This document shows, piece by piece, positions 42,001-54,000 of a stretch of 64,000 bases of DNA. This stretch comes from Ruditapes philippinarum (lineage: Eukaryota). The position numbers are program-made. Location of the stretch: contig NW_026860481.1 of NCBI RefSeq assembly GCF_026571515.1, positions 248,001 to 312,000 of the forward strand. The letters run 5' to 3'. Each line of letters begins with the position of its first letter. Within the stretch, counting starts at the first letter, position 1.

Positions 42001-45000
42001 TGCCCTTTGTTCTTTTTCATACTATTTTGTCCGGAGCTTATCTCAAAAAGTATTTGAGGTATCAACTTGAAACTTCATAGGTGGATGAATCTCATTGAGG
42101 AAGAGTGCAGTGCACAAAAACGATAACTCTACCCTGCATAATTGTTTAGTTATTGCCCTTTTTATTTTTCAAAATTAATTTTTGTCCAGAGCATAACTCA
42201 AAAGGCCTTTGAGATATCATTATGAAACTTCATAGGTGCATAGATCTCACTCAGGAGGTGTGCAGTGCACAATAATGATAACTCTACCTTTTATAATTTT
42301 TGAGTTATTGCCCTTTGTTATTTTTCATACTTAATTTTTCAATTCAATTTTTTTCTCAAAAAGTAATTGAGGTATCAACTTGAAACTTCATAGGTGGATA
42401 GATTTTACTGAGGAGGGATGCAGCACACAAGAATGATAACCTACCCTGCATTATTTTTCAGTTATTGCCCTTTGTTATTTTCAGCCATCAGTATTCACAT
42501 AGGTTTCAAATCTGAAATCACTATAGCCATCAGTTTTCATTACCAAAAGACCTCTTAAAATGGAATTATTCTGCTCTACTACATATACTTTCTTTCAATG
42601 AGCAAACACATTCGGCGGGGGATGGCCATGTTGACATGGCTCTTGTTTTGTTTTGTTTTGAATGATCTGCAAATGATGGAAAAGCATTGTTCATGCATTA
42701 ACTTTTATTTGTGCCTGAACGTAAGCTATTGCAAAAGTGTACTTCGTCATACCATATGTGCATGGATTCGTTTAAGGTAGTTTTATGAAAAAAATAGTTT
42801 GTTAAGTATCTTAATTTATGTTAAATTTCTGATGTTGTTTATCTTTTTTATCATTAACTGTGAAGATATATTAGAAGTGCTTGCGGTTTTTAAACCAATA
42901 TTTATTATTATCTTGAACAAATTTCAATAGTTTATTCTTTTATTCCTTGCTTTATTATTATCTTTTCATAATAACGGTAATGTCCTTTCTGTTTTATAGT
43001 CAACTAGTAATATACAATGCACAATTTAACTTTTCGTTCTTTACAAAATGTACGTACGTAGTTATTATCCTATTACAGAAACCCTATATATCACTTTATT
43101 TAATTCAGGGCTTTACTGAAAATTAGAAAAGCTTCAATGGCACTGTGAGCAATTCTTAAAGCGTTAGAATACTATGAGAGGACAAGATAATGCTTTGATA
43201 ATGCTTTAAAGTATGATTTGTTTCATATATTTTTAATAACAATAAATTGTGTGGCACACAAACATATTTTGAATTCGTTACATAAATCTGTTAATTCAAA
43301 TTTAATTCCGCCAAACAAAGCAGAAAAGAATCATCGACATTGTGTCAGATATCAACGTCGACCTTTTTTCTAGTAACGGTTTCTTAATAAACAATAATAA
43401 TTTAGAAAATTTATATTAAACCGGTTATTACAAAGGTTAACAATAATTCCAAAATTGTTTTACGTCGAAGAAACGAAATTGCATTTTTTCTTTAGACGTA
43501 GTCAAGAGTAGTTTTCTTATAATTATCCTAATCATTTATCTGATCAAAAGTATTACTAAACTAATTATAATATTAACATGATTTTAAAAACGTTACAACT
43601 TTACAAGTATATTACGTTTTTGTTGTCATATCCTGACCACTTACACGGAATATGTAATGTCCTCATTCGCGAAACTTGGTAAATAATATAAAATGTATTT
43701 TGTAGGAAAATTTAATTATATCAATCAGGTAAAAGTCATAACTAACAGGAAAAAAAGATCATATCGAAGAACATTTTTACGAAGTATTTCTTTGAAACAG
43801 CACCATCAAGTCGATTATTTTACGCTATTAAAATCATACAAGGGGTAATTTCTTTGCAAGAAATATGTTCCAAAATACCTCAATGCCGAAGGTACACATT
43901 TAACATTGAATTCTTTTTATATCATCTAGCTTTACATCACAGCTTCTACGAATGCCGAAAATAAATTGAAGCCATAAATTCAATCTGATCTTACGATCTG
44001 GCCTGGGAATACTTTGAGATAGATAAATCCATAATTTACTATCCCGTGACACTAATTTGACGCATGCAAGACAAATGATCCACGTGGGTCGAATAATATA
44101 ATTACATATAGTTAGCAACATGAAATATTTGTGATATTTTCCATTGAAAAGATTACATGAAATTCTATAAGAATTCTTTGGTTTTCCAATAAGTTTGATA
44201 TGACCATGTCCGTTTGTTAATTCGTTTATTTTTAAATATATAAAACGTAAGTGTTGAAAAAGGGCCCTGGTTCATAAACTTATATCATTTAATTGTCTTA
44301 CTAGCTGTCTGTCACTAAACTTAGACTAAAAAATCCATGACAGAAAATCTAAATAATTGTATCCTTTTCTGAAATTCCTGGGTATACTTTTCTGAAATTC
44401 CTGCTTAAAAGAAACTAATTAATTACAATTATTACCCCTCACTTTTTTCGTAATGCTAATTTCCCATAGACCTCTGGGAGTTATTCTTACTGTTAATGCA
44501 AGTGTACCACGTGACTAAGAATTTTGTACTGTTACATAGGTAACAGTATTTTTTAACAGTATAAAATCTGGTCACGTGGTCTATTTTCTAAATAAAATGA
44601 AATAAAATGGCCGCCATTTTTTTCTCGATTCATTCTTATTTTCGACGATAGGGCATCGCCGAAGTAACTATTACTCTGATAAAATTTAGTTCTTTGCACC
44701 CTAGAGTCCCTTTCGCGTATTAAATATCTTTTTGTTGAATAGTCAACAAGAAACATCCGTTTTCAACGGAAGTAATTGTAATGTAAATAATTTTGTGTCA
44801 AACTGGAACATGCAGACAATTAAAGCATGCAACAAAGGATAATTTAACAATTTTAACCAGTGAAACGTTACAGATAGAGTTGGTGGACAGACATCTGTAG
44901 GATATCATCGTTATTTTCTAAATGCACTTTGTCAAAAACCATGCGAAGAATATTCTGGATGCAGAAGGATCAGATTTCACAGATCATAACGTTATAAATG

Positions 45001-51000: not shown

Positions 51001-54000
51001 AATTTAAAAACTAACACTTATACTATAGGAATTTTATAATGATGTCAGATACAATACATTAGGTTGCAAGTGTTGTCCTGTCCGTATAAATTGTAAATAT
51101 GCCAAATGATATAAAAAGATATAAATCTTTAACATCAGTTTTACGTTTGGTTTGTACTCATGAAAAGAATTAGGAAATGTGACATTTTTTTCTGTTAGAA
51201 TGACACTATTGTGCACGATGTTTCCATGACGTTGTTGCCACTGTTATGTACTGATTCGTAATGTGTCTTATATTTTTTAAATAAAGATTCTATTTCACGA
51301 ATTCCCACAAACAAACAATTAAGGACTTACAAAATCATGTTATAACGTCTAGCCCATTCTATATAATTTGTCTTATTTTTACAAACACAGAATAGGCAGC
51401 AAAAATATTTTATTTCCCTCGTATATTGTATTGTCACATTAGCTGATTTTGAACATTTGTCGGTCTGATTGATATTTAAAAAGAGAAGCTGCTTTCCATC
51501 TAAAGTTTTATTTGTTGTCTAGAACCTCTGAATTTTTTATGCCCCCGCCATGTAATGGCCGGGGCATATAGTGTTACCCTGTTCCGTCATTCCGTCCTTC
51601 CGTCCTTCCGTCCTTCCGTCCTTCCGTCATTCTGTCATTCCGTCATCATCAGTTTCCGTTCATTATCTTAAGAACGGTTGGACATATTCAACTCAAATTT
51701 GATATATGGATATGTCATGAGAAAATACAGGTCAAGTTCGAATTTGGTCATGGTTCGATGATTTTTGGCAGAGTTATGCCCCTTTTACTTTGAAAATAAT
51801 ATGAAATTTTCAGTTTCCGTTCATTATCTTAAGAACGGTTGGACACATTCAATTTAAACTTGATATATGGATATGTCATGAGAAAATACAGGTCAAGTTC
51901 GAATTTGGTTATGGTATGATGATTTTTGGCTGAGTTATGCCCCTTTTACTTTGAAAATAATATGAAATTTTCAGTTTCCGTTCATTATCTCCCCAACGGT
52001 ACAATACAATCAACTCAAACTTGACATATTGATATGTCATGAAAAAATACAGGTCAAGTTCGAATTTGGTCATGGTTCGATGATTTTTGGCAGAGTTATG
52101 CCCCTTTTACTTTGAAAATAATATGAAATTTTCAGTTTCCGTTCATTATCTCCCTCAAGGTACAACACATACAACTCAAACGTGACATATGGATGCGTCA
52201 AAGGAATGTGCAGGCCAAATTTACAGTTTCTGTTCATTATCTACCCAACAGTGTCACATATTCAACTTTAATTTGACATATGGATATGTCAAAGGAATGG
52301 GCAGGTCAAGTTGGAATTTGGTCATGGTTTGATGATTTTTTGGCAGAGTTATGTCTCTTTCACTTTGAAAATAATATAGATACATCTTAGGAATAAGCAG
52401 TTTAAGTTTGAATTTGGTCGTGGTTCAATGATTTTAGACAAACTTATCTTTCCTGAATGTTGGAAAAACTTTGAACTTTCAGTTTCACCACTCATTCTTT
52501 TAGCCATTATTTTGGCTACAAATATGCAATATGCTATTTCTAAAAGGTTAAGACTGAATAATTTCAGTGCCTTGAACATTGTATGGAAATGGTTTGTGTT
52601 AACATTGAAAAGTTTTAAGGGCTTTGAACTTAAAATGAAAAAAATAATTAATGCACCATCTGAAATTTTGGCTGCATGCAGGGGCATCCGTGGCATGATG
52701 ACACATTTCTAGTTATTCCTAAACCGATATTTTAAAAACGTTTTTCATCAGAGAACTGTGAATATGAAATTTTGTGAAATTCCTATAAAAAGTTTTGTTT
52801 AATGCTTGTTAACATGCGAAATACCTAATTGACACTATTTTGCATTTTTACTTTCAAGATTATATATATATAAGCATGATGAGCTGTTAAAGTGTATTAT
52901 CTTCAAATCACATTTCTGTTCCTTGCATATATGGCAATACGAAACACACGTTTTGGTAATAGCTAATAATTTAATTTAATGGAAACAAATTTAAAATGAG
53001 AAGTGCGTAATATAATTCCAGAACTATTTAATGATCATTTTCTATGTACATGTTTAATTCTTTAATTAGTATGTTTCTTTATTTCTTTATTGCATGATTT
53101 TCATTTAAATGTTCTACCTTTCATGTATAGTTTATGGAAGCATAGAATGCATCCATGCTAAATTTTCTCAGCGGCATCAAATCGTACAATAGTTCATGAA
53201 GTAAACTAGGTTATTATATTATTCTACCCACATGGCTCATTTGTCTTGAATGTGTCAAATTACTGTCATGGTGTAGTAAACATCGGATTAATATATCTCA
53301 GATAATTCCCCAAATTGTTTGTACAATAAGATGGAGCTTCATGATTTCATTTGTTTTGGTCTTTCCAAAAAACTCGGTGTTATAATTGACATAAGTTTTT
53401 AATGGATTCACCCGTTTTGTGATATTTCGGAAGCCTTTCCCTGCAGTGGAATCAGTTACGGTTATACCGTTAGTTGTCTTTGAAGTTTAACTACTTTTAT
53501 TTCTGAACATATTTGTAACAAAGAAATCAATTTAGCACATTGTATAAAACAGTCAACTATCTATAACAACATAATGACACCTGAATTATTAACACGAAAT
53601 TGTTCATTACAGGTTTTGTCAATGTGACGGAACTCTACTGAGATTAGGAGTCACTTTTCTTGCATATTAGACTGGCGTTTCCGTTAGTTTTACCCATGCC
53701 GGAAATTTCATCTGCATTTGGGGTGTCAGAAAAGTCGCGTACTGTACAATAGCATACTTAGGATGACACAATTTCGCCGTTATGAATGAAGTTGTAATTC
53801 ATAGGCTGTTGTAAGAAAATAGTTACGGTTTTATTGACATAAATTTAGATTGAAAATAAAGATAAAGAATTTAAAATAAAATGGAATATGGTAGGATATT
53901 CAAGAAAAAATATCTGACATATGTTTGCGGTTCGGATCGGAATATCCGCAACTCGGTCACCCGCCCATGGGCGGTAACTCGGCAAGCCTCGCAACATATG

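What the first reader, a model, noticed from the sequence alone, without database searches (positions are those of the whole stretch)
44043..53276. ~50-nt hairpin with compensatory base changes in three paralogues
Seen, in module sense: 53224-53276 CATGGC..TTTG-loop-CAAA..GTCATG; rc 44043-44088 CGTGG..TTTG-loop-CAAA..TCACG; rc 47153-47194 GTGTGAC..TTTG-loop-CAAA..GTCACAC. The outer stem changes on both arms together (A-U to G-C, C-G to U-A, G-U to A-U), and G-U pairs favour the strand sense to the modules. Degenerate traces occur at ~50720 and ~60755. Inference: a conserved structured RNA (pre-miRNA-like or leader element) or a dyad DNA site. The loop region TTGACGC(A/T)TG also resembles a paired-domain site.
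Basis: partly seen in the sequence, partly recalled or inferred. Interest (0 to 1): 0.7.

Follow-up and report, generated by a model that had tools for sequence, protein, structure and literature searches.

The report
Conserved non-coding block with weak hairpin
Three nearby copies of a roughly 100-base non-coding block are clearly kept similar and contain a small imperfect hairpin, but the evidence that the hairpin itself is a functional RNA structure is weak, so this is most likely an ordinary regulatory or leader sequence of a locally duplicated unit.

Summary
They sit inside a real conserved non-coding block: A 53196-53318(+), B 44118-43996(-), C 47226-47104(-), nhmmer E 1e-33 to 1e-36. 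A and B are inverted collinear duplicates. They share two islands (z about 24-26), and the sequence between the islands is fully randomised.

Support for an RNA hairpin is weak:
- Single-copy folds are no better than shuffles (z -1.4, +0.6, -1.2). In 125-nt context the MFE fold is a different one in 3 of 3 copies.
- Only 2 of 11 pairs change on both sides, and 47 of 500 shuffles reach that. All four substitutions are CpG-to-TpG/CpA decay.
- There is no Rfam match even at E<=10.
- The consensus fold beats column shuffles (p about 0.01). However, 7 of 48 control windows from other paralogous islands do as well.
- A substitution simulation does favour kept pairing (p 0.0004-0.026), but that test is post hoc.

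The pre-miRNA reading is rejected. The Pax-site likeness is background-level. The "traces" are not significant.

Best reading: a sequence-constrained cis-regulatory or leader block. No homologues outside the window could be collected.

The parts
53196..53318 (+). Copy A of the conserved non-coding block. The proposed hairpin is 53231-53270. The wider island I1 shared with B is 53142-53385.
   Evidence: nhmmer E 2e-34; CM R1 74.0 bits; island z 23.7 against shuffles; sequence.
43996..44118 (-). Copy B of the block. The hairpin is 44084-44045. Island I1 is 44168-43932. B keeps both arm CpGs (CACGTG ... CACGG).
   Evidence: nhmmer E 1.2e-36; CM 75.3 bits; CpG columns 19, 26, 48, 64; sequence.
47104..47226 (-). 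Copy C of the block. The hairpin is 47194-47153. Similarity to A and B spans about 47253-47067. C shares only this island. TATAAAAAG lies just upstream in module sense.
   Evidence: nhmmer E 2.2e-33; CM 72.2 bits; blastn; sequence.
54305..54515 (+). Island I2, copy A. It is a second conserved non-coding island collinear with I1, about 920 nt further on in module sense.
   Evidence: blastn 72% over 230 nt; z 25.8; found only in A and B; stops in all frames.
43051..43272 (-). Island I2, copy B, about 660 nt beyond I1 in module sense. The opposite strand carries a conserved acceptor-like TTATTATCCTATTACAG.
50718..50745 (-). Doubtful degenerate trace D. It keeps ATCATTTGTCT and GTCAAATT with a shorter spacer and shows no flank similarity.
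   Evidence: Pattern match against 0.01 expected; CM E 1.5; local alignment not above shuffles.

Best explanation
The feature is a short non-coding island kept by purifying selection in three locally duplicated copies. It is about 100 nt in all three copies and about 245 nt between A and B.

It most likely works through its sequence. Either it is a cis-regulatory or promoter-proximal DNA module, or it is the untranslated leader of a small duplicated transcription unit. The invariant 32-nt core (TC.TTTGTCTTG.A.G.GTCAAATTA.TGTCA) would be read by sequence-specific factors. The imperfect hairpin is a by-product of a short dyad (ATTTG ... CAAAT) plus a 6-bp outer stem. The two 'compensated' pairs in that stem arose by CpG decay.

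Shown: the conservation, the lack of coding potential, the collinear duplication, the weak fold, and the CpG nature of the changes.

Inferred: that the constraint acts on DNA or protein binding, that the block is a promoter or leader, and the direction of transcription.
For: Discrete constraint. A and B share I1 (z 23.7) and I2 (z 25.8). The 660-920 nt between them (z -0.4) and the 600 nt upstream (z -0.6) are no more alike than shuffles. C keeps only I1.

Not coding. All frames carry stops, and the ATG-led frames in B and C differ from each other (sequences). No Pfam domain was found in 147 of the 163 ORFs of 58 aa or more, apart from two LINE reverse transcriptases.

The constraint is on sequence, not on pairing. 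In the hairpin alignment, 27 of 32 columns of loop, inner stem and 3' arm are invariant. In the 5' outer arm only 2 of 8 are. Conservation also extends well beyond the hairpin on both sides.

The fold is weak:
- 65-nt z-scores are -1.41, +0.64 and -1.22.
- 125-nt z-scores are +0.86, +1.41 and -2.36, and the MFE structure is not the proposed hairpin in 3 of 3 copies.
- No Rfam family matches at gathering score. At E<=10, 0 of 9 weak matches lie on a block.

CpG decay. There are 6 CpG columns in the block and none is kept in all three copies. Both double changes are CG to CA/TG (copy A) and CG to TG/CA (copy C). The window has CpG o/e 0.81 and TpG and CpA o/e 1.22.

AT-rich TATA-like stretches lie just upstream in module sense (read by eye).
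Against: The consensus fold does beat column-shuffled alignments:
- Column shuffles give p 0.004-0.024.
- Dinucleotide-preserving column shuffles give p 0.004-0.010.
- Only 1 of 48 control windows has a consensus energy as low as -11.8.

A substitution simulation started from a perfectly paired ancestor, with seven substitutions in the 22 stem columns. It gave at most 1 broken cell together with at least 2 double changes in only 0.04% to 2.6% of 20,000 runs, for CpG factors 1-20. That favours maintained pairing, which a protein-binding DNA site does not predict.

The G-U pairs make the fold strand-specific: -9.46 against -4.55.

No transcript, TSS or factor data exist here. The TATA and Inr readings are by eye. 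The putative splice donors after the block are not aligned in all three copies.
Confidence: 0.4

Rival explanations
1. The hairpin is a selected RNA structure. It would be a roughly 40-nt stem-internal loop-stem element at the 5' end of a leader or in a small non-coding RNA, transcribed in module sense, and bound by a protein that reads the conserved loop.
For: 32 of 33 cells pair (97%), against 27-49% when the 3' partners are slid by 1-3 columns. Two pairs change on both sides and two show one-sided G-U/A-U wobble changes. The consensus fold gives p about 0.004-0.024 against column shuffles. The substitution simulation gives p 0.0004-0.026. The sense strand is favoured by about 5 kcal/mol.
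Against: - Mean single-sequence z is about -0.7.
- It is not the MFE fold in 125-nt context in 3 of 3 copies, and two of the three contexts fold worse than shuffles.
- The covariation control gives 47 of 500.
- All four compensating substitutions are CpG transitions. Given that both CpGs decayed, a matching outcome has chance 1/2 per lineage (my arithmetic).
- By the same column-shuffle test, 7 of 48 control windows reach p<=0.01 and 8 of 48 reach z<=-3.
- The hairpin was picked by eye from 64 kb.
- The loop is more conserved than the stem.
- There is no Rfam match.
- There are only three sequences.
Confidence: 0.25
2. The block is a relic without function. The islands would be the best-preserved remains of an old local duplication, or fragments of an old transposable element present three times.
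For: The locus is repeat-rich. It holds pearl-type arrays, foldbacks, LINEs and a 190-nt dispersed repeat. Copies are 70-80% identical, as old repeats are. CpG sites decay freely inside the block.
Against: Neutral decay would leave the flanks as similar as the islands, yet the flanks are at shuffle level (z -0.4, -0.6) while the islands are at z 24-26. I1 and I2 are collinear in A and B. No terminal inverted repeats sit at the block ends. There is no further copy in the other 47 kb.
Confidence: 0.15
3. The transcribed strand is the opposite one. I2 would be a terminal exon and I1 a downstream 3'-UTR or post-gene element, so the 'head' of the module is really a tail.
For: On the antisense strand of I2, conservation begins at an acceptor-like TTATTATCCTATTACAG in both copies. 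It is followed by a short frame open in both (15 and 28 codons), and by AATAAA in B about 150 nt further on (read by eye).
Against: A carries only TATAAA at the matching place. No acceptor or donor is visible at I1 on that strand. The antisense consensus fold is weaker. No upstream coding exons are conserved between A and B: no stop-free tblastx matches besides I1.
Confidence: 0.1

Closest known systems
Lineage-specific conserved non-coding elements, or proximal promoter and leader blocks of locally duplicated units (for example the conserved sequence element before each variable exon of clustered protocadherins; recalled, not tested)
   Same: A short block is kept at the same place in each duplicated unit. 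The surrounding sequence is free to diverge. The block has an invariant core of about 30 nt.
   Different: No coding exon follows. The copies lie in both orientations. No transcript or factor is known.
Animal pre-miRNA hairpins
   Same: A hairpin of about 40-50 nt present in paralogous copies.
   Different: There are only 11 pairs in two short helices with internal loops. Energies are -10 to -14 kcal/mol, at shuffle level. The loop is better conserved than the 5' arm. No Rfam miRNA family matches.
5'-UTR protein-binding hairpins such as the iron-responsive element
   Same: A small stem-internal loop-stem with a conserved loop sequence, possibly in a leader.
   Different: There is no CAGUGN apical loop or C bulge (features recalled). 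There is no Rfam IRE hit at E<=10. It is not known to be transcribed.
Pax paired-domain binding site (consensus ANNTTCACGCWTSANTKMNY, as quoted in PMC2041993, one passage read)
   Same: B and C match 12 of 16 specified positions on the antisense strand.
   Different: A matches fewer than 12. The third core base differs (TTGACGC against TTCACGC). There are 91 sites in the window that match 12 or more.

Membership tests
animal pre-miRNA | A long, stable, mostly paired stem able to give a ~22-nt duplex (criterion recalled) | tested here: not met
   11 pairs in helices of 6 and 5 bp. MFE is -13.4, -9.9 and -14.2, with 19, 145 and 20 of 200 shuffles folding as well.
animal pre-miRNA | Arms more conserved than the loop (criterion recalled) | tested here: not met
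   Loop, inner stem and 3' arm have 27 of 32 columns invariant. The 5' outer arm has 2 of 8.
animal pre-miRNA | Small-RNA reads with Drosha/Dicer ends | not testable with these tools
   No expression data are available.
any Rfam 15 family (including IRE, SECIS, U7, snoRNAs, miRNAs) | A covariance-model match | tested here: not met
   0 matches at gathering score in the whole window. At E<=10 over 43800-53500 there are 9 weak matches and none on a block.
structured RNA by covariation | Base pairs covary more than phylogeny and chance allow | tested here: inconclusive
   There are only 3 sequences. 2 of 11 pairs change on both sides, reached by 47 of 500 shuffles. Both are CpG decay. The simulation gives p 0.0004-0.026. 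The control windows show the column-shuffle test is lax, with 7 of 48 at p<=0.01.
Pax paired-domain site | A match to the paired-domain consensus above background | tested here: not met
   12 of 16 in B and C and fewer than 12 in A. There are 91 sites at 12 or more of 16 in the window.
MITE or other transposon fragment | Terminal inverted repeats at the block ends | tested here: not met
   No shared inverted repeat sits at the ends of the three copies.
MITE or other transposon fragment | Many dispersed genomic copies | not testable with these tools
   Only the window is held. Within it there are 3 copies, all inside 10 kb.
core promoter plus first exon | A TATA- or Inr-like element, a TSS and a splice donor | tested here: inconclusive
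   TATAAAAAG lies before C and AT-rich TATATTA before A and B. GT sites follow the block but are not aligned in all three copies (read by eye). No transcript data exist.
tRNA-derived SINE | A tRNA-like head with A and B boxes | tested here: not met
   ARAGORN finds 0 genes in the window. No A-box-like conserved stretch lies upstream.

The most novel reading that the evidence does not exclude
The block is the 5' end of a lineage-specific family of small non-coding or leader RNAs. Their hairpin is kept by selection (compensated outer stem, strand-specific G-U pairs) and presents a conserved 12-nt loop to an RNA-binding protein. That would be a new structured RNA family absent from Rfam.
Probability: 0.15. 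Interest if true: 0.5.

Novelty: new member of a known kind. Interest (0 to 1): 0.25.

Why it matters
If the block is only a conserved regulatory or leader sequence of a small duplicated unit, it is an ordinary piece of lineage-specific non-coding conservation and mainly useful for annotating this locus.

It would matter more if the hairpin proved to be a selected RNA structure, because that would define a new RNA family in a poorly studied invertebrate genome.

The case also gives a practical caution. In a CpG-depleted genome, a palindromic CG...CG pair decays into apparently compensatory changes half of the time. Column-shuffle tests are also lax on paralogous islands of this locus.

Tried and rejected
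- **Coding exon or signal peptide:** stops in all frames. The ATG-led frames in B and C differ from each other, and A has none.
- **Rfam families:** none matched.
- **SECIS on the antisense strand:** AUGA/GUGA ... GA were seen by eye. The geometry does not fit and no SECIS model hit at E<=10.
- **U7-like Sm site (AUUUGUCUUG, likeness recalled only):** no U7 hit, no histone-downstream complement, and no 3' hairpin.
- **Spliced-leader RNA:** the copies are 70-80% identical, too diverged to give one leader, and there is no canonical Sm site (read by eye).
- **tRNA or SINE head:** 0 tRNAs found.
- **MITE:** no terminal repeats.
- **Link to the two pearl-type arrays nearby:** their position and orientation relative to A and B are not consistent.
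- **Trace at ~60755:** chance 11-mer; that region is instead paralogous to 32.3-33.1 kb.
- **Trace at ~50720:** not significant.
- **Third island, 55928-56165 against 40448-40207:** only 60% identity and doubtful.
- **Homologues elsewhere:** About one match is expected by chance from 2 x 596 Gb / 4^20 (my arithmetic).
- **Taxon:** the Atlas search with the LINE ORF gave only reverse-transcriptase clusters and no usable taxon.
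Full report
**Setting.** The window is 64 kb with 29% G+C and two N runs, which I left alone. CpG is depleted (o/e 0.81) and TpG and CpA are in excess (1.22 each).

I scanned 147 of the 163 stop-to-stop ORFs of 58 aa or more. The 16 left out lie in the two tandem-repeat arrays, in the GA microsatellite, or overlapping the LINE copies. Only two LINE-type reverse transcriptases matched Pfam. There are no tRNAs and no Rfam matches at gathering score.

Two arrays of about 156-161-nt repeats, each next to a (CCGT)n run, have the build of pearl/DTC84 elements. 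Those are described from bivalves, and also from a sea urchin and some insects (PMC3879986, passages read). I therefore take the contig for an invertebrate, possibly a mollusc, and not for human. This is an inference.

**The observation.** They are the centre of a larger conserved block:
- A 53196-53318(+), B 44118-43996(-), C 47226-47104(-), with nhmmer E 2e-34, 1.2e-36 and 2.2e-33. The next hit in the window has E 0.062.
- The 23-nt core TTTGTCTTGNANGNGTCAAATTA occurs 3 times against 0.03 expected.
- Pairwise identity over about 100 columns is 80.4% (A-B), 69.7% (A-C) and 71.3% (B-C).
- The stated base changes are real. Pair 27/64 is A-U in A and G-C in B and C. Pair 26/65 is C-G in A and B and U-A in C. 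Pair 30/61 is G-U in A and B and A-U in C, which is a one-sided change.

**Context.** A and B are inverted, collinear duplicates.
- Island I1 (A 53142-53385, B 44168-43932) scores z 23.7 against shuffles.
- Island I2 (A 54305-54515, B 43272-43051) scores z 25.8.
- The sequence between them (z -0.4) and the 600 nt upstream (z -0.6) are no more alike than shuffled sequence.
- C shares only I1. I2 has no third copy.

Both islands carry stops in every frame. The only ATG-led frames across I1 in B and C are different frames, and A has none. The islands are therefore discrete, constrained and non-coding.

**Is the hairpin more than chance?**

Evidence against:
- As 65-mers the three copies fold at -13.4, -9.9 and -14.2 kcal/mol. 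That gives z -1.41, +0.64 and -1.22, with 19, 145 and 20 of 200 dinucleotide shuffles folding as well.
- Against 3178 65-nt windows of the same contig they rank in the best 3.8%, 16.7% and 2.5%. They are also richer in G+C (35-43% against 29%).
- In 125-nt context the z-scores are +0.86, +1.41 and -2.36, and the minimum-energy fold is not the proposed hairpin in any of the three.
- On the named 11-pair structure, 32 of 33 cells pair. Only 2 pairs change on both sides, and 47 of 500 shuffles reach that.
- All four substitutions in those two pairs are CpG transitions. B keeps CG in both arms, A has CA and TG, and C has TG and CA. The block has six CpG columns and none is kept in all three copies. 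If both CpGs decay, a complementary outcome has chance one half per lineage, so one quarter for both. This is my arithmetic.

Evidence for:
- The RNAalifold consensus energy (-11.8 for the block, -9.46 for the hairpin columns) beats 1000 column shuffles with p 0.004-0.024.
- It also beats 1000 consensus-dinucleotide-preserving column shuffles with p 0.004-0.010.
- The sense strand is favoured: -9.46 against -4.55.
- I ran a simulation that starts from a perfectly paired ancestor and places the seven observed stem substitutions at random. At most 1 broken cell together with at least 2 double changes arose in 0.04% to 2.6% of 20,000 runs, for CpG factors of 1 to 20.

Caveats to the evidence for:
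- The structure and the ancestor were both chosen after seeing the data.
- The same column-shuffle test was run on 48 control windows taken from four other three-copy islands of this contig, on both strands. It reached z<=-3 in 8 of 48 and p<=0.01 in 7 of 48. Only 1 of 48 had a consensus energy as low as -11.8.

I conclude that the dyad is real and mildly unusual, and that selection on pairing is not shown.

**More copies.** A covariance model of the hairpin (R1) was run without filters over the window. It found the three copies (72-75 bits) and nothing else below E 0.75.
- The ~50720 trace scores E 1.5, at rank 6 of 16. It matches a post hoc two-word pattern (0.01 expected) but is not above shuffles in local alignment.
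- The ~60755 trace is a chance 11-mer in a region that is paralogous to 32.3-33.1 kb instead.
Homologues outside the window therefore stayed unchecked.
- The one scan of prokaryotic genomes gave a single match with unrelated flanks, which is about what chance predicts.

**What it is.** The pattern of constraint points to sequence rather than structure.
- 27 of 32 columns across loop, inner stem and 3' arm are invariant, against 2 of 8 in the 5' outer arm.
- Conservation runs well beyond the hairpin on both sides (TATTCGACC upstream; GGAT..AT.TATCTC and TTCCC downstream).
- No Rfam family fits, even at E<=10.
- The pre-miRNA reading fails on stem length, stability and conservation pattern.
- The Pax likeness is 12 of 16 specified positions of the consensus quoted in PMC2041993 (one passage read; oligonucleotides in PMC7046147, one passage read). 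There are 91 sites in the window that match as well or better.
- No terminal inverted repeats mark the block as a MITE.

AT-rich TATA-like stretches lie just upstream in module sense, and GT sites follow the block. The GT sites are not aligned in all three copies (read by eye).

On the opposite strand, I2 begins with a conserved acceptor-like TTATTATCCTATTACAG. The direction of transcription is therefore open.

**Verdict.**
- Most likely (0.4): a cis-regulatory or leader block of a small, locally duplicated, non-coding unit, constrained at the sequence level, with an incidental weak hairpin.
- A selected RNA hairpin remains possible (0.25).
- A functionless relic or transposon fragment is less likely (0.15).
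- An opposite-strand 3' element is least likely (0.1).

I did not consult the supplements of any cited paper.

Noticed in passing
window 40998-42489 and 51559-52377: Two pearl/DTC84-type elements. Each is a (CCGT)n-like run followed by 9 copies of a ~156-nt unit or about 5 copies of a 161-nt unit. This build is described from bivalves and a few other invertebrates.
   Followed up: partly
window 44429-45494: A foldback element. The outer inverted repeat 44429-44549 / 45375-45494 is 94% complementary. Inside it is a perfect 45-nt palindrome at 45233-45277 / 45330-45374. It gives a sub-threshold Rfam hit to the plant family MIR2670 (55.4 bits against gathering 117), which is a generic long-hairpin match.
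   Followed up: partly
window 23479-26061(+) and 62323-63998(-): Two LINE-type reverse-transcriptase copies. The first is an intact 861-aa open frame. The second is broken into several frames and runs off the window. They are about 69% identical at DNA level.
   Followed up: partly
window 1-38000: Three tandem paralogous segments (about 2.7-8.8 kb, 11.6-20.3 kb and 28.3-37.6 kb) share non-coding islands of 70-90% identity. Inside the first is a 97% identical internal duplication, 5565-6618 / 7412-8455. No Pfam domain was found.
   Followed up: partly
window 16536-16690, 22812-22998, 32660-32851, 38299-38544 (+) and 59486-59253 (-); also 2759-2914: A dispersed repeat of about 190 nt. A 96-column window of its three-copy alignment folds at -16.7 kcal/mol consensus (z -3.5). 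That is a stronger consensus hairpin than the one in the finding.
   Followed up: partly
A short frame open in both copies follows.
   Followed up: partly
window 56328-56362 and 57524-57558: 35-nt inverted repeats, 97% complementary, flank 1.16 kb. This is a candidate DNA transposon or MITE.
   Followed up: no
window 38622-38831 and 39424-39636: Inverted repeat arms of about 210 nt at 83% identity, about 600 nt apart.
   Followed up: no
window 6754-6960(+): An open frame of 69 aa with a coiled-coil-like, charged composition and no Pfam match. It lies between the two copies of the 97% internal duplication.
   Followed up: no
whole window: CpG o/e is 0.81 with TpG and CpA at 1.22. This suggests germline CpG methylation and decay, which matters for reading apparent compensatory changes.
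   Followed up: yes
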